From Candidatus Spyradenecus sp. (GTDB lineage: Bacteria; Verrucomicrobiota; Verrucomicrobiia; Opitutales; UBA953): a DNA stretch of 64,000 bases. The DNA lies in NCBI GenBank assembly GCA_045535075.1, contig JAZSKX010000018.1, positions 32,001 to 96,000 on the forward strand. The letters are read 5' to 3'. The notes below the pieces were generated by a model. The model ran no database searches and was not told the DNA's origin. It saw only the letters and a list, made by a program, of their open reading frames with translations. The position numbers were made by a program, and so were the translations under genes. Within the stretch, counting starts at the first letter, position 1; every line of letters begins with the position of its first letter. Positions 1 through 64,000 of this stretch are shown here, in pieces.

Positions 1-155
1 TAAACCCGATAAATAAAGGAAAGTTTTTTTGAGGCAAGGCCTTTAACAAACCTTCTCAGACCAAGAAAATCGAGTTTTTGCATTTTCAAAAAGACCGTTT
101 TTTTGTTCGCAGAAACGCTCTTATTCCGATTTACTGGAGGTTTCTAAAATCAAAC

Positions 156-1448
156 ATGACAGAAAAATCACTCAGAGTGCTCATTATCGGCTCAGGCGGG
201 CGGGAACACGCTTTGCTCAAAGCCTGCAAAGCCAGCCCGCTCGTGGCGGCGGTCTCCGTTGCGCCGGGCAACGGCGGCATGGAACAGGAAGCAATTTGCT
301 ATCCGCTGAACGTCACGGACGTTCCCGCGATCGTAGCATTGGCAAAACGCCTGGACTCCAACTTTGTCATCGTCGGACCCGAGGCCCCGCTCTCGGTCGG
401 CGCAGTCGACGCACTCCTCGCGGAAGGCATTCCCGTTTACGGTCCGACTAAAGCGGGAGCCGTACTTGAAGCGAGCAAAACGTTTACAAAAGATTTTCTG
501 ATGCGCCATGCAATCCCGACCGCATGGGGCAAAAAATTCACTTCGTCGGAAGAAGCCGTCGAATTCCTTGCCGATCAAAAATTTCCGATTGTCATCAAGG
601 CAGACGGGCTCGCAGCAGGGAAAGGCGTCATCATTGCCGAAGATTACGATGCCGCCTGCTCTGCTGTTTACGACATGCTCGACGAAAAATGCTTCGGGAA
701 CGCCGGCTCCGAGATTTTAATTGAGGAATTTATGGCAGGCGAAGAAGCCTCCATCATGCTGATGGTTTCGGAAGACAAGTATGTCATGCTCCCCGCTAGC
801 CAAGACCACAAGCGCGTCGGCGACGGAGACACGGGACCGAATACCGGCGGCATGGGCGCATACGCTCCCGCGCCGGTTGTTACGCCTGAAATCGAAAAGG
901 CGGTTGTCTCCAAAATTGTGGAGCCGACGCTGAAAGGCTTACTCGCTGACGGCATCCGTTACCGCGGCACGCTTTACGTCGGAATCATGATTACGGCAGA
1001 AGGCCCGAAGGTCGTTGAGTTCAATGCCCGATTCGGCGATCCGGAATGCCAAGTTCTCCTTCCTTTATTAAAAACCGATCCCGTGCAACTCATGTATGAT
1101 TGCGCGACGGGAACGCTCGATCCGGCAAAAGTCGAATTCAAAGACGGATTTAACATCATTGTCGTACTCGCCGCCCAAGGCTATCCGAGCACGCCGCGCA
1201 AAGGCGACGTTATCTCGTTCCCGGGCAAACTCCCCGAAGGAACGGCGATCCTGCATTCGGGAACGGAGCGCGAAGATTCCGGCGATATCGTAACCGCAGG
1301 AGGGCGAGTCCTCGGAGTCGTCGCTCACGGCGAAACTCTCGCCGGCGCCGCCCGAAACGCTTACGCGCTCATTGAAAAAGTGCACTTTGAAGGAATGCAC
1401 TTCCGCCGCGACATCGGCGCCCGCCAACTTAAACGCGACGGCGTTTAA
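156..1448 (+). CDS. purD: Phosphoribosylamine--glycine ligase
   Basis: VLIIGSGGREHAL N-terminus, KADGLAAGKGV, QDHKR..GPNTGGMGAY, EFNARFGDPE. Start placed at ATG 156. Confidence 0.97.
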   Translation: MTEKSLRVLIIGSGGREHALLKACKASPLVAAVSVAPGNGGMEQEAICYPLNVTDVPAIVALAKRLDSNFVIVGPEAPLSVGAVDALLAEGIPVYGPTKAGAVLEASKTFTKDFLMRHAIPTAWGKKFTSSEEAVEFLADQKFPIVIKADGLAAGKGVIIAEDYDAACSAVYDMLDEKCFGNAGSEILIEEFMAGEEASIMLMVSEDKYVMLPASQDHKRVGDGDTGPNTGGMGAYAPAPVVTPEIEKAVVSKIVEPTLKGLLADGIRYRGTLYVGIMITAEGPKVVEFNARFGDPECQVLLPLLKTDPVQLMYDCATGTLDPAKVEFKDGFNIIVVLAAQGYPSTPRKGDVISFPGKLPEGTAILHSGTEREDSGDIVTAGGRVLGVVAHGETLAGAARNAYALIEKVHFEGMHFRRDIGARQLKRDGV

Positions 1449-1484
1449 ACACGCGCTCCCGCAGATTTTCTGCTACGGAAAACC

Positions 1485-61903: not shown

Positions 61904-62716
61904 TTACAAAAAAGAAAATTCGCTCTGCGGCGGAGCGGCGCTTTCCGGCGGGAAAAGATCTTCCAAGCCGGCAATCTGTTGCGGCGAATTGGCGGCGAGA
62001 TTACGCAGGAACTTCATCCGATGCAGCGGCGTAATTCCGTGCGCACGAATCGCCGCGATGTGCGTCGGTGTTCCGTAGCCTTTGTGTTCCGAAAATTTAT
62101 ATTGCGGGAACGCCCGGTCGAGTTCGCACATCGCCCGATCGCGCGTAACTTTCGCAACAATCGAAGCAAGCGCAACCGCAAGGCTCGTTGCATCACCTTT
62201 GACAATCGCTTCGTGGCGCCAGGCAAACGGCACAAGCGGGCGCCCGTCAACCAACATCGGCGGGAACAGCGTCCCTTTGTTAAAAAGCGGTGCATCATCC
62301 GCTCCGGCCGTCGCAAACGGACAAGGCGTTCCTTCCGGTTCAGACGCATTAAATTTCTCTAAAACCCCCGCGACGGCACGTTGCATCGCCAAGCGCGAAG
62401 CCCCGAGAATGTTGAGCGTATCAATCTCGCGCACACTCGCCGTTCCCGCAGAAAAAATCAGGTTGCCGGATTTTTCCCAATGTTCAATCAGAGCAAAAAT
62501 TTCTTCACGGGTTTCGTGTGTGAGCTGTTTCGAATCATTGATAAACTCGGCACGCCGAATCGGCGTCGAAACCTCATAAAACTTGCGCTGAACCCAAACC
62601 GCTCCCGCGACGACGGGACCCGCAAAGCACCCGCGCCCGGCTTCATCGACACCGACAATCCCCGGCGCATTTCCGAGCCGTTTTTTGTCATATCTGATGA
62701 GAGCGCGCGAAGCCAT
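61904..62716 (-). CDS. rnhB: Ribonuclease HII
   Basis: [36 protein letters not shown]. Start at ATG 62716. Confidence 0.94.
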
Positions 62717-62890
62717 TTTCCCGTAAAGACTAACGCGAAAAACGCAAATATTAAAGAACGAAAGCCCGATTTCCGCCCGAAAAAACACTTCCGAAACGAC
62801 GGGAACGCGCCTTCGATCGAAGAAAAAAGAAGCAATCAATTTTCGCGGTCGACAAACTCCGCTCGAATGCGAAATGATTAGAAAATCCGT

Positions 62891-64000
62891 ATGAAATTTT
62901 CCTCTAAAATCTTTTTTGTATGCGCCGGAGTTTTTGCGGCAACTTGCCTCGGATTGCAGGCAAACACAACGAACGATGTCGCCGTCGACGCCGGAATTCA
63001 GGCAATTATCCGTCAGGGAATTCTTCCCGTCCGCATTGAATCTTCCGATAATTCAATCGCGACATTGGCGCGCTACGCACTGAGCTTTCACGGTGCATTC
63101 GACACAAAAGCTTCCCCGAAAACCGCCGCCGTCATTCGCATTTCAAACAACGGAGATTCGCTCAGCGCAACAGCATCCGGGCTCAGCAAAGCGTTTGCGG
63201 GAACGCTCTCGGTCGCGGGAACGGGCAATGACGCCGTCGCCGCATTGTGCGACAAAATCATTGTCGCCGTCGGCAAAAAACATTCTTGGGATCTGAAGCC
63301 GATTTTCTCAAAAACCAAACTCGCTTTTTCCGCTTCGAAAACAGGTTATCGCGAAATTTATTTTTCGGATTTGCTCTTCCGCAACATCCGGAAAGCCACC
63401 GGGCACAATCGTATCGCCATCATGCCGAACTGGGACCCTGCGGGAACGCGCCTGCTTTATACGACTTATCACGCAAGCGGCGCTGCAGACGTTTACTCCG
63501 TCGACCTTGCAACAGGGGCCTTTTCCCGATTCGCCGCGTATCCGAATACAAACAACGGCGGCGCATTTTCTCCCGACGGATCGAAAGTCGCACTGGCTCT
63601 TTCCGCTCGCGGCGTCATGAATATCTACGTCAAGCCGGCAAAAGGAGGAAAAGCCGTTTCTCTTTGCCGCGACAATGAGGTGCAGACCACCCCGGTTTTT
63701 TCTCCCGACGGAAAAACAATCCTTTTCACAAGCGGCCCGAACGGACGCCCAAGCCTCTACACCGTTCCCGCAACAGGCGGAAAAAAGAAACGCCTGACAA
63801 CACAGGGCTTCACCTACGCAACCGACCCGGCGTGGAGCCGCGCCGCACCGGATAAAATCGCATTTTCCTATTTGCGAAGCGGAAAAAGCGGAATCGGCAT
63901 TTACGATTTAAATACACGCAAAGTCCGCGACCTCGGCACCTTAATCCCCGGCGGCAGAAAATTCTCGAATCCGACATGGTGCGCGGACGGACGCCACATC
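62891..64000 (+). CDS. tolB: TolB-like beta-propeller protein (runs off the window; absent from ORF track)
   Basis: Hand translation from ATG 62891: signal peptide, then PD40-type repeats (PNWDPAG, AFSPDG, PVFSPDG, PAWS, PTWCADG). Confidence 0.85.
   Translation, partial: MKFSSKIFFVCAGVFAATCLGLQANTTNDVAVDAGIQAIIRQGILPVRIESSDNSIATLARYALSFHGAFDTKASPKTAAVIRISNNGDSLSATASGLSKAFAGTLSVAGTGNDAVAALCDKIIVAVGKKHSWDLKPIFSKTKLAFSASKTGYREIYFSDLLFRNIRKATGHNRIAIMPNWDPAGTRLLYTTYHASGAADVYSVDLATGAFSRFAAYPNTNNGGAFSPDGSKVALALSARGVMNIYVKPAKGGKAVSLCRDNEVQTTPVFSPDGKTILFTSGPNGRPSLYTVPATGGKKKRLTTQGFTYATDPAWSRAAPDKIAFSYLRSGKSGIGIYDLNTRKVRDLGTLIPGGRKFSNPTWCADGRHI

What the first reader, a model, noticed from the sequence alone, without database searches (positions are those of the whole stretch)
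1..64000. Window-wide hyper-abundant non-palindromic motif (G/A)CGGGAACG: candidate new DNA uptake sequence
Seen: a hand count in positions 1-10000 gives about 33 exact CGGGAACG/CGTTCCCG 8-mers, versus about 0.3 expected under uniform base composition. It gives about 48 GGGAAC/GTTCCC 6-mers, versus about 5 expected, split roughly 26:22 between orientations. The motif stays visibly dense to the end of the window. It sits inside essential genes in several frames and recurs as the peptides AGT, VPA, RER, GNA, AFP and RSR, so single-frame codon bias does not explain it. Known: a dispersed, strand-unbiased, non-palindromic 9-12-mer embedded in CDSs and paired in terminators is the signature of the Neisseriaceae DUS and the Pasteurellaceae USS. 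Chi and KOPS are strand-biased; cyanobacterial HIP1 is palindromic. Inference: an independent self-DNA recognition system in a Verrucomicrobiota lineage, of which I know no description. Alternatives are a methyltransferase/repair-driven motif (HIP1-like drive) or a nucleoid-protein binding site.
Basis: partly seen in the sequence, partly recalled or inferred. Interest (0 to 1): 0.92.

Follow-up and report, generated by a model that had tools for sequence, protein, structure and literature searches.

The report
Uptake-sequence-like 8-mer in gut Verrucomicrobia
One genus of uncultured Verrucomicrobiota writes the DNA word CGGGAACG into its genome about every 380 bases and keeps it even at silent codon positions, which looks like the self-recognition DNA uptake sequences known only from Neisseria and Haemophilus relatives, although uptake itself is untested.

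Summary
CGGGAACG/CGTTCCCG occurs 185 times in the window, against 6.5 expected. It occurs 5159 times in the 1.95 Mb genome, or 2.65 per kb. Expected counts are 69 to 587 under Markov orders 0-3, and 512 or 166 in coding sequence under two codon shuffles against 4485 observed.

The word is (Y)RCGGGAACG(C) with no conserved flanks. It sits on both strands and in all six frames. About 55% of copies lie on the G-rich strand. It is paired in about half of simple terminator hairpins and is depleted in two Mu-like prophages.

All 18 other species of the genus carry it; 22 genomes of other genera searched are at background. In nine high-density species it is held at synonymous positions: 109 of 123 sites against a 37% baseline. 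In two separate lineages (four genomes) it has decayed at the neutral rate.

ComEC, DprA, a pilus set with PilT and seven pilins are present. ComEA and a ComP homologue were not found. No gene tested tracks the decay.

Best reading: an independent DNA-uptake-sequence-type system (confidence 0.55), function untested.

The parts
1..64000 (.). Field of 185 exact CGGGAACG/CGTTCCCG copies (91 +, 94 -). 158 of them have the extended form RCGGGAACG. They lie inside purD, recD2, rsmE, ksgA, folP, fmt, glgB, uup, der, fucI, cydAB, hisD, nuoG, priA, nrdD, glnS and others, and between genes.
   Evidence: Searches give the counts (92 copies in 26 named genes). One search names the genes (NCBIfam).
8307..8333 (.). 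Inverted motif pair CGTTCCCG-N11-CGGGAACG between convergent genes, flanked by an A-run and a T-run: a bidirectional intrinsic-terminator-like hairpin.
   Evidence: RNA fold -21.8 kcal/mol; sequence aaaaaagCGTTCCCG...CGGGAACGcttttt.
12752..12777 (.). Inverted motif pair between the convergent tnaA-like gene and fmt: terminator-like hairpin.
   Evidence: -20.4 kcal/mol, with A-run and T-run flanks.
13969..13995 (.). Inverted motif pair between fmt and glgB: terminator-like hairpin.
   Evidence: -16.3 kcal/mol.
19142..19171 (.). Inverted motif pair. It lies inside the left arm of a 153-nt inverted repeat.
21172..21201 (.). Inverted motif pair, the reverse-complement twin of 19142-19171. It lies in the right arm of the 153-nt inverted repeat.
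   Evidence: (-25.8 kcal/mol).
22905..22928 (.). Inverted motif pair with A-run and T-run flanks: terminator-like hairpin. My crude ORF caller places a short ORF over it.
   Evidence: -16.0 kcal/mol.
31879..31906 (.). Inverted motif pair between convergent genes: terminator-like hairpin.
   Evidence: -19.8 kcal/mol.
36769..36794 (.). Inverted motif pair upstream of the cydB end: terminator-like hairpin.
   Evidence: -21.0 kcal/mol.
42084..42105 (.). Inverted motif pair between a 301-aa gene and xth: terminator-like hairpin.
   Evidence: -16.1 kcal/mol; aaaaaaCGTTCCCG...CGGGAACGtttttt.
47181..47206 (.). Inverted motif pair between convergent hisD and an FAD-protein gene: terminator-like hairpin.
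   Evidence: -22.4 kcal/mol.
16624..16639 (.). Two abutting copies, CGTTCCCGCGGGAACG, inside the uup ORF. This is an example of an intragenic pair that is not a terminator.
53637..55928 (+). priA, an example of a housekeeping gene carrying 8 copies (3 +, 5 -).
56553..58757 (+). nrdD, which carries 2 copies. In the first alignment, both are at the same aligned positions in 6 and 8 high-density congeners whose columns could be read, and both are mutated in all four low-density congeners.
   Evidence: In one search the wrong ORF was picked for some rows, so only rows with readable columns count.

Best explanation
The word (Y)RCGGGAACG(C) is a DNA-uptake-enhancing sequence of the DUS/USS type that arose independently in one genus of Verrucomicrobiota. 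The inferred mechanism is as follows. A surface or periplasmic component of a retractile type IV pilus-like machine prefers DNA fragments that carry the word. These fragments enter through ComEC, are loaded by DprA/RecA and replace the resident allele. Alleles that carry the word are therefore over-transmitted among conspecifics. This molecular drive fills the genome until it is balanced by mutation and protein constraint. Inverted pairs were co-opted as terminator stems. What is shown: the extreme enrichment, its DNA-level maintenance, the restriction to one genus, the terminator use, the prophage depletion, the decay in two lineages, and the presence of ComEC, DprA and pilus genes. What is inferred: any uptake preference, the existence of a receptor, and natural competence itself.
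For: (1) Enrichment is 75-fold over base composition and 9-fold over a synonymous-codon null that keeps every protein sequence. The density of 2.65 per kb is at least that of DUS or USS as I recall their densities.
(2) The word is short, with no information beyond about 10 bases. A single-mismatch scan shows a sharp core: variants at CGGGA occur at 0-3.9x Markov-1 expectation against 80x for the consensus. This fits the footprint of one sequence reader, not a mobile element.
(3) Both strands are used, 2527/2632. 55% of copies lie on the G-rich strand of 20-kb windows (2272 of 4123 in the 78 of 86 windows with a clear skew sign).
(4) There are 239 close pairs of the form CGTTCCCG-N-CGGGAACG, with a spacing peak at 20 (53 pairs) and A-run/T-run flanks. 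The opposite arrangement gives 92 pairs with no peak. 424 of 851 simple hairpin-plus-T-run sites carry the word. DUS and USS are likewise found in terminators (PMC13020248 passages; abstract of 10.1101/2025.10.24.684340).
(5) Two Mu-like prophages have 0.58 and 0.27 copies per kb at normal G+C.
(6) Genus restriction: the 10-mer GCGGGAACGC has 138-3301 copies in all 18 congeners. It has 0-49 copies, like the reversed control, in 6 genomes of 4 other genera of the family and 16 genomes of other families of the order.
(7) Active maintenance: among 8-nt windows whose codons encode identical residues, G000 motif windows are nucleotide-identical in 109 of 123 cases (88.6%) in 9 high-density genomes, against 37.1% for all windows. 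Even so, only 33-83% of G000 sites are shared with each genome while density stays equal. That is turnover at equilibrium, as a drive predicts.
(8) Machinery: ComEC channel domain, DprA, secretin, two PilB/GspE-type ATPases, one PilT-type ATPase, a PilC-like gene and 7 prepilins.
Against: No ComEA-type protein passes the cut-off with PF12836 or TIGR00426; the only good hit lies in an 805-aa frame that I take to be Tex-like. The ComEC homologue shows only the channel domain in Pfam, with no beta-lactamase-like domain. None of the 7 pilins matches ComP_DUS, even at E <= 1. ComEC, DprA and pilus genes are common in bacteria never shown to be competent. In the four low-density congeners, every candidate tested is intact: ComEC, DprA, 6 of the 7 pilins, the three ATPases and the secretin. 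The seventh pilin, from C2, is intact in G001 and G013, was not searched in G002, and shows one in-match TGA in G014 that I did not follow up. So the decay gives no genetic link to uptake. No dialects were found. Spacing is random (median gap 262 against 261 expected for an exponential distribution). Earlier notes of this scan report similar hyper-abundant words in giant viruses, which cannot be uptake signals, so such words can arise in other ways (unchecked notes).
Confidence: 0.55

Rival explanations
1. The word is read inside the cell by an unidentified sequence-specific factor, such as a nucleoid, segregation, repair or biased gene-conversion protein. It is kept by selection or biased repair, as is suspected for cyanobacterial HIP1, and has nothing to do with DNA uptake.
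For: Conservation at synonymous sites and decay in two lineages show only that some process reads the DNA. They do not show where it acts. All tested envelope and competence genes are intact in the decayed lineages. ComEA was not found. Unchecked scan notes describe comparable words in giant viruses.
Against: I know of no bacterial nucleoid or repair system that uses an exact non-palindromic 8-mer at 2.6 per kb (recalled knowledge). Spacing is random rather than even. Site positions turn over between species while density is kept, which fits a drive better than position-specific function. No Vsr and no DndC were found. The terminator pairing and prophage depletion mirror DUS/USS.
Confidence: 0.3
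2. The word is the target of a restriction-modification or orphan methyltransferase system. The candidate is the MmeI-family type IIG enzyme at C2:15704-18763, whose family recognises asymmetric 6-7-mers (family specificity recalled, not tested). Enrichment would follow from methylation-linked repair or selection.
For: The core CGGGAAC has the shape of recalled MmeI-family sites, with an adenine next to last. Such an enzyme is encoded in G000.
Against: Homologues of the enzyme were found in only 9 of 18 congeners. They are present in low-density G001 and G014. They were not found in high-density G003, G006, G007, G008, G009, G012 and G016. Several of G000's DNA methylase genes lie in or beside low-G+C, motif-poor stretches or inside a prophage, which suggests recent arrival. 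Restriction targets are usually avoided, not enriched (recalled).
Confidence: 0.05
3. The word is a polar recombination or translocation signal of the Chi or KOPS type.
For: It is short, asymmetric and over-represented. The G-rich form is slightly more common on the G-skewed strand.
Against: Only about 55% of copies are co-oriented with GC skew (1122/952 and 899/1150). That small bias is matched by the sense-over-antisense bias in genes (2645 against 1833). Enrichment and density are far above those recalled for Chi or KOPS.
Confidence: 0.03
4. The word is a by-product of codon or peptide usage, repeat proteins or a small mobile element.
For: Five giant Gly/Thr-rich ORFs carry the word almost only in the sense orientation, and in the largest one mostly in one frame: 189 copies in all. 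A seeming sister word in genome G019 turned out to be exactly this kind of artefact.
Against: Those giants hold 189 of 5159 copies. The rest are spread evenly (53 +/- 11 per 20 kb) over all six frames. The excess survives both codon shuffles. There is no flanking conservation.
Confidence: 0.01

Closest known systems
DUS of Neisseriaceae (10-12-mer GCCGTCTGAA with dialects; receptor is the minor pilin ComP)
   Same: Short, non-palindromic and hyper-abundant on both strands. Found inside genes. Inverted pairs serve as terminator stems in one preferred arrangement. Restricted to a taxon. Poor in prophage DNA. A type IV pilus, ComEC and DprA are present.
   Different: The sequence is unrelated and the phylum is different. 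Density is about 2.65 per kb (up to 4.8 per kb in a 30-kb sample of G009), and 87% of copies lie in coding sequence. No ComP_DUS homologue and no ComEA were found. There are no dialects: the same word is used across the genus. Uptake is untested.
USS of Pasteurellaceae (core AAGTGCGGT plus AT-rich flanks; receptor unknown, minor pilin ComN predicted in 10.1101/2025.06.16.659825, search listing only)
   Same: Mostly intragenic. Frame preferences follow tolerated peptides. Explained by molecular drive. The receptor has not been identified experimentally.
   Different: There is no flanking AT-rich segment, since information ends after about 10 bases. Tolerance of core mismatches is much sharper.
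HIP1 of cyanobacteria (GCGATCGC)
   Same: An 8-mer at about 1 per kb, held at the DNA level, with an unknown reader.
   Different: HIP1 is palindromic and linked to a methylase (recalled). This word is asymmetric and no methylase tracks it.
Chi and KOPS
   Same: Asymmetric 8-mers read on DNA.
   Different: Those are strongly co-oriented with replication and far less enriched. Here co-orientation is about 55%.

Membership tests
DNA uptake enhancing sequences (DUS/USS type) | Short non-palindromic word, hyper-abundant on both strands beyond composition and codon nulls | tested here: met
   5159 copies (2527/2632) against 69-587 under Markov orders 0-3. 4485 in coding sequence against 512 and 166 under two codon shuffles.
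DNA uptake enhancing sequences (DUS/USS type) | Embedded in unrelated genes in several frames and conserved at the DNA level, not the protein level | tested here: met
   All six frames are used. At identical residues, 109 of 123 motif windows are nucleotide-identical against a 37.1% baseline in 9 congeners.
DNA uptake enhancing sequences (DUS/USS type) | Inverted pairs used as intrinsic-terminator stems | tested here: met
   239 close pairs with a spacing peak at 20 and A/T-run flanks. 424 of 851 hairpin-plus-T-run sites carry the word. 10 examples in the window.
DNA uptake enhancing sequences (DUS/USS type) | Shared by related species and absent outside the clade | tested here: met
   Above background in 18 of 18 congeners. 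At background in 22 of 22 genomes of other genera searched.
DNA uptake enhancing sequences (DUS/USS type) | Dialects: related clades with variant words | tested here: not met
   High-density congeners sampled use the same word. Low-density ones keep relics of it and show no new word. The apparent variant in G019 is a repeat-protein artefact. Samples of other genera were only 17-80 kb.
DNA uptake enhancing sequences (DUS/USS type) | Depletion in recently acquired DNA | tested here: met
   Mu-like prophages have 0.58 and 0.27 copies per kb against 2.65 per kb, at G+C of 52-55%.
DNA uptake enhancing sequences (DUS/USS type) | Complete DNA-uptake machinery (type IV pilus with retraction ATPase, secretin, ComEA, ComEC, DprA) | tested here: inconclusive
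   Pilus genes, a PilT-type ATPase, a secretin, the ComEC channel domain and DprA are present. ComEA was not found with PF12836 or TIGR00426.
DNA uptake enhancing sequences (DUS/USS type) | Cognate receptor (ComP in Neisseriaceae) | tested here: not met
   None of the 7 prepilins matches PF16732 at E <= 1. Only 7 prepilins exist by HMM and by regex.
DNA uptake enhancing sequences (DUS/USS type) | Preferential uptake or transformation by DNA carrying the word | not testable with these tools
   Needs cells or proteins.
Chi / KOPS polar motifs | Strong co-orientation with replication direction | tested here: not met
   About 55% co-oriented with the sign of GC skew.
HIP1-type iterated palindromes | Palindromic word | tested here: not met
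   CGGGAACG is not its own reverse complement. The logo is asymmetric.
REP / MITE dispersed repeats | Unit of tens of bases with conserved flanks or terminal repeats | tested here: not met
   Information content falls to about 0 outside positions -3 to +7 around GGGAAC.
Restriction-modification target of the resident MmeI-family enzyme | Enzyme co-distributed with the motif | tested here: not met
   Homologue found in 9 of 18 congeners. Its distribution is unrelated to motif density.

The most novel reading that the evidence does not exclude
A third, independently evolved self-DNA recognition system for natural transformation exists outside the Proteobacteria, in an uncultured Verrucomicrobiota genus that carries host-glycan (fucose, sialic acid) genes. 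It has its own word, CGGGAACG, the highest density yet seen, and a receptor unrelated to ComP. Two natural loss-of-drive lineages within the genus, with all known uptake genes intact, offer a comparative route to find that receptor.
Probability: 0.5. Interest if true: 0.88.

Novelty: new variant of a known kind. Interest (0 to 1): 0.8.

Why it matters
Sequence-specific DNA uptake is known from only two proteobacterial families (abstract of 10.1101/2025.10.24.684340; passages of PMC13020248). It underlies ideas about bacterial sex, species barriers and molecular drive.

An independent case in another phylum would show that self-tagging of DNA evolves repeatedly. It would also point to natural competence in Verrucomicrobiota. 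My searches found no paper on an uptake sequence in that phylum, or on this word as a genomic motif. A practical use would follow: adding the word to donor DNA for genetic work on these uncultured bacteria.

The genus also holds a natural experiment. In 15 species, by their word counts, the word is kept at high density; in the 9 of them I sampled it is held even at silent sites. In 4 species from two separate lineages it has decayed at the neutral rate.

Tried and rejected
1. A dialect in the sister genus. In 80 kb of G019 the top 8-mer, CGGGTACG, differs from the word by one base. All but one of its 62 copies lie in one giant ORF in one frame, and the flanks show period-3 composition. It is a repeat-protein artefact and I rejected it.

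2. Gene loss as the cause of decay. These are intact in low-density genomes: ComEC and DprA in 19 of 19 genomes; the 141-aa and 237-aa pilins in 19 of 19; the four-pilin cluster in G001, G002, G013 and G014; three T2SSE ATPases and the secretin in G001, G013 and G014. The C2 pilin is intact in G001 and G013. It was not searched in G002. In G014 the match contains one TGA, which I did not follow up. Nothing discriminates.

3. Methylation and repair causes. The MmeI-family enzyme is patchy. No DndC and no Vsr were found in G000, which is 99.45% complete.

4. A multi-species syntenic comparison around nrdD failed, because synteny holds only for the closest relatives. I used pairwise best-hit orthologues from whatever loci I held instead.

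5. In one search the longest ORF was the wrong gene in several loci. Only the columns at the two G000 sites were used, and the tree was rebuilt from BLAST-chosen ORFs.

6. One search timed out and was rerun.

7. Earlier scan notes: there are none for this genome or for look-alike stretches. The word search returned similar cases on other DNA.

8. I did not use structure prediction, complex prediction, read mapping or the large protein searches. None could have shown uptake.
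Full report
OBSERVATION. Positions 1-10000 hold 16 forward and 17 reverse copies of CGGGAACG, and 26 + 22 copies of GGGAAC/GTTCCC. The window holds 185 copies (91/94), with 18-29 in every 8-kb bin. Dinucleotide-preserving shuffles gave 6.48 +/- 2.63 copies, with a maximum of 16 in 100 shuffles.

The window is G000:C5:32001-96000 of a 1,949,087-bp, 18-contig genome with 52% G+C, rated 99.45% complete. Genome-wide the word occurs 5159 times (2527/2632), or 2.65 per kb. It is the commonest 8-mer by a factor of four over any unrelated one. Every contig over 16 kb has 1.97-3.21 copies per kb.

NULL MODELS. Expected counts on both strands are 68.8, 182.9, 268.1 and 587.4 for Markov orders 0-3. Orders 5 and 6 approach the observed count only because they are fitted on the word's own sub-words. 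I called ORFs with a crude greedy caller of my own (1590 ORFs covering 91% of the genome). In these ORFs 4485 copies stand against 511.6 +/- 16.5 when synonymous codons are shuffled within each gene, which keeps every protein and each gene's codon usage. They stand against 165.8 +/- 11.9 when codon order is shuffled. Both nulls are conservative, because the word itself inflates the codon usage they preserve.

ANATOMY. Aligning all 6921 GGGAAC sites gives (C/T)(G 0.60/A 0.25)(C 0.94)GGGAAC(G 0.77)(C 0.45), with no information beyond that. So this is a word of 8-10 bases, not a repeat element.

A single-mismatch scan of GCGGGAACGC (1614 copies against 20.2 expected under Markov-1) shows a sharp core. 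Any change within CGGGA drops the count to 0-3.9 times Markov-1 expectation. A is tolerated at position 1 (54x). G is tolerated at the second A (12x). A or T is tolerated at the 3' G (37x and 22x). The last C hardly matters.

All six frames are used: sense 424/1452/769 and antisense 363/304/1166. They encode RER, (A/T)GT, xGNx, RSR, xFP and xVPx. Density is 2.51 per kb in ORFs and 4.05 per kb outside them.

Five giant Gly/Thr/Ala/Ser-rich ORFs carry the word almost only in the sense orientation. In the largest, 51 of 61 copies are in one frame. Together these five hold 189 of the 5159 copies.

Gaps between copies have a median of 262 against a mean of 376. That is what an exponential (random) spacing gives.

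POLARITY. In 20-kb windows with positive GC skew the forward/reverse counts are 1122/952. With negative skew they are 899/1150. So about 55% of copies have the G-rich form on the G-rich strand. The sense-over-antisense bias in genes (2645 against 1833) is enough to explain this. This is not Chi- or KOPS-like polarity. The caveat is that replichores were inferred from the sign of the skew on a draft assembly.

TERMINATORS. Close pairs in the arrangement CGTTCCCG-loop-CGGGAACG number 239 within 60 nt. They show a sharp peak at a start-to-start spacing of 20 (53 pairs), and 141 of them are not inside an ORF. They typically read AAAAAAGCGTTCCCGtga....tcgCGGGAACGCTTTTTT. The opposite arrangement has 92 pairs and no peak.

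Of 851 simple hairpin-plus-T-run sites (perfect stem of 7 or more, loop 3-12, both strands), 424 carry the word. My detector is ad hoc and not comparable in detail with published ones. Published figures are up to 22% of terminators with USS and up to 37% with DUS (PMC13020248, passages read). [quoted passage not shown] Ten such pairs lie in the window, with folds of -16 to -26 kcal/mol.

FOREIGN DNA. The longest motif-poor stretches include two Mu-like prophages, identified by Gam, a MuB-like AAA protein, Mu gp27, terminase and Mu portal hits. They hold 22 copies in 37.8 kb (0.58 per kb) and 3 copies in 11 kb (0.27 per kb), at 52-55% G+C. Several low-G+C stretches that lie in or beside restriction-modification genes are also motif-poor.

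DISTRIBUTION. The 10-mer GCGGGAACGC has 1614 copies in G000. In 14 congeners it has 1591-3301 copies. In G001, G002 and G013 it has 318-341 copies, and in G014 it has 138. It has 0-49 copies, the same as a reversed-sequence control, in 6 genomes of 4 other genera of the family and in 16 genomes of 16 other families of the order.

Samples of seven high-density congeners give 1.7-4.8 copies per kb although their G+C ranges from 47% to 62%. The four low-density genomes have 0.28-0.64 copies per kb. In three of them the same word is still the first or second commonest 8-mer, and none shows a replacement word (samples of 50-81 kb). So I found no dialects.

Eighty kb each of G020 and G026, and the non-repeat 40 kb of G019, show no hyper-abundant word. 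G021 and G022 were sampled too thinly to tell.

MAINTENANCE AND DECAY. I paired ORFs from the loci I held (6-67 kb aligned per genome) with their best G000 orthologues and aligned them by codon.

In nine high-density genomes, 33-83% of G000's sites carry the word at the same place. The chance that any 8-mer in the same genes is unchanged is 9-42%. I then restricted the comparison to windows whose codons encode identical residues in both genomes. There, motif windows are nucleotide-identical in 109 of 123 cases (88.6%), against 37.1% of 52,503 windows overall. So the word is held at silent positions.

In the low-density genomes the figures are 72 of 260 (27.7%) against 29.2%. This means there is no maintenance at all in those genomes. 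Meanwhile 20 of 20, 27 of 40 and 28 of 33 of their own remaining copies in G001, G002 and G013 are shared with G000, so they are relics. For G014 the figure is 5 of 13. A separate blastn comparison gave the same picture.

Among high-density genomes many sites are not shared while density stays the same. That is turnover at equilibrium.

G000's motif windows also fall more often where residues differ from the G001/G002/G013 clade. 229 of 484 motif windows have all residues identical, against about 63% of all windows. This fits either word-driven residue changes or a preference for tolerant positions.

TWO DECAYS. An NrdD maximum-likelihood tree gives (G014 low, (G004 high, (G000 high, (G001, G002, G013 low)))), with supports 93/98, 98/99, 99/98 and 98/97. 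It is a single gene, and the outgroup sits on a long branch.

Identities to G000 of ComEC, DprA and two pilins rank the same way: the low trio is closest, then G004 and G018, then G014 or deeper species.

The two G000 sites in nrdD were present in 6 and 8 high-density species whose columns were readable in the first alignment. So the ancestor had the word, and maintenance stopped twice.

MACHINERY. G000 encodes the following:
- A ComEC homologue of 570 aa with only the channel domain.
- DprA.
- One secretin, in a gene row I read as pilMNOPQ-like from its ORF layout alone.
- Two PilB/GspE-type ATPases, one PilT-type ATPase and a PilC-like gene, at C5:25804-31766, immediately upstream of the window.
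- Exactly seven prepilins, by both HMM and regex.

No ComEA-type protein passes the cut-off. No pilin matches ComP_DUS. These genes make uptake possible but do not show it.

CONTRASTS THAT FAILED. All the candidates tested are intact in the low-density genomes. The exceptions concern the C2 pilin: it shows one in-match TGA in G014 that I did not follow up, and it was not searched in G002.

The five relatives examined have a further secretin and ATPase that G000 lacks, whatever their motif density.

The MmeI-family enzyme is the only resident methylase whose family reads asymmetric words (family specificity recalled). Its homologues were found in 9 of 18 congeners, with no relation to density. 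DndC and Vsr were not found.

INTERPRETATION. Some process that reads double-stranded DNA, without regard to strand, frame or position, writes and keeps this word. It has been active since before the genus diversified and has stopped twice.

The only established mechanism that yields this full set of features is biased uptake plus recombination, as for DUS and USS. The molecular-drive model is recalled from Redfield and colleagues and was not read here. I give this reading 0.55.

An unknown intracellular reader is the main rival, at 0.30. It is favoured by the missing ComEA, by the intact uptake genes in the decayed lineages, and by unchecked scan notes of similar words in giant viruses. Those notes also list an uptake-signal-like 9-mer in a soil Verrucomicrobium (e1-2962804) and an 8-mer in Leptospira-like spirochaetes. 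So this scan has met the phenomenon before on other DNA.

LITERATURE. Three searches bear on novelty.
- The four sequence strings: 2,766 papers hold at least one; the 25 top-ranked were listed, and all look like primers or unrelated topics by title.
- 'DNA uptake sequence' with 'Verrucomicrobia': 3 papers, none on topic by title and abstract start.
- 'natural transformation', 'Verrucomicrobiota' and 'competence': 7 papers, none on topic by title and abstract start.

None describes this word or an uptake sequence in the phylum.

Recent work treats uptake sequences as confined to Neisseriaceae and Pasteurellaceae (abstract of 10.1101/2025.10.24.684340; passages of PMC13020248). PMC3630211, PMC3868556, PMC1939737 and 10.1101/2025.06.16.659825 were seen only in the search listing. 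I read no supplements.

TAXON. The best named GlnRS relatives are a MAG labelled Sphaerochaetaceae (89% identity, locus L017, probably a congener with a doubtful label) and a Puniceicoccales MAG (69%). Puniceicoccales belongs to Verrucomicrobiota. The placement is therefore plausible but not proven here. The window's fucose and sialic-acid genes suggest a life on host glycans.

Noticed in passing
window 18605-21390: A nested quasi-palindrome. Inverted repeats lie at 19127-19279/21064-21216 (153 nt, 99%), 18605-18763/21232-21390 (159 nt, 95%) and 19853-19972/20329-20448 (120 nt, 87%). They surround two divergently oriented ORFs of about 255 aa (19200-19976 on the minus strand, 20385-21140 on the plus strand) that have no NCBIfam hit. 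This may be an inverted duplication or an invertible segment.
   Followed up: partly
G000:C16:~182500-220300 and G000:C8:~20800-31800 (outside the window): Two Mu-like prophages with Gam, a MuB-like AAA protein, gp27, terminase and portal hits. The C8 one has a C5 DNA methylase. One C16 ORF (locus L117:6561-8021) has a weak ADP-ribosyltransferase-domain hit. Both prophages are motif-poor.
   Followed up: partly
G000:C5:125845-140217, C8:185333-198142, C9:13798-25875, C16:75251-89585 (outside the window): Giant Gly/Thr/Ala/Ser-rich ORFs of 2358-4791 aa. They carry the word almost only in the sense orientation; in the largest, 51 of 61 copies are in the (A/T)GT frame.
   Followed up: partly
G019:C2:1-40000 (loci L192, L193): One open frame runs through all 40 kb sampled (over 13,000 aa). 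It carries 61 in-frame copies of CGGGTACG. This repeat protein mimics a hyper-abundant word.
   Followed up: yes
G001, G013, G014, G004, G018 against G000: All five relatives have a fourth T2SSE ATPase (about 440 bits) and a second secretin (about 145 bits). G000, rated 99.45% complete, lacks both. This is possibly a type II secretion system lost in G000.
   Followed up: no
G000:C2:15704-18763 (locus L174): An intact 1020-aa MmeI-family type IIG restriction-modification enzyme next to a low-G+C, motif-poor stretch. G000 also has three HsdM genes and two C5 methylases; several of these lie in or beside similar motif-poor stretches or in a prophage.
   Followed up: partly
G000:C11:3775-5487 (locus L001): The ComEC homologue evolves unusually fast within the genus. 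Its identity to G000 is 33-64%, where NrdD keeps 83-96% and DprA 47-77%. It has no beta-lactamase-like domain by Pfam.
   Followed up: no
G014:C88:4259-4915: The orthologue of the C2 prepilin in low-density genome G014 shows one in-match TGA. I did not check whether it is a true break or the natural stop.
   Followed up: no
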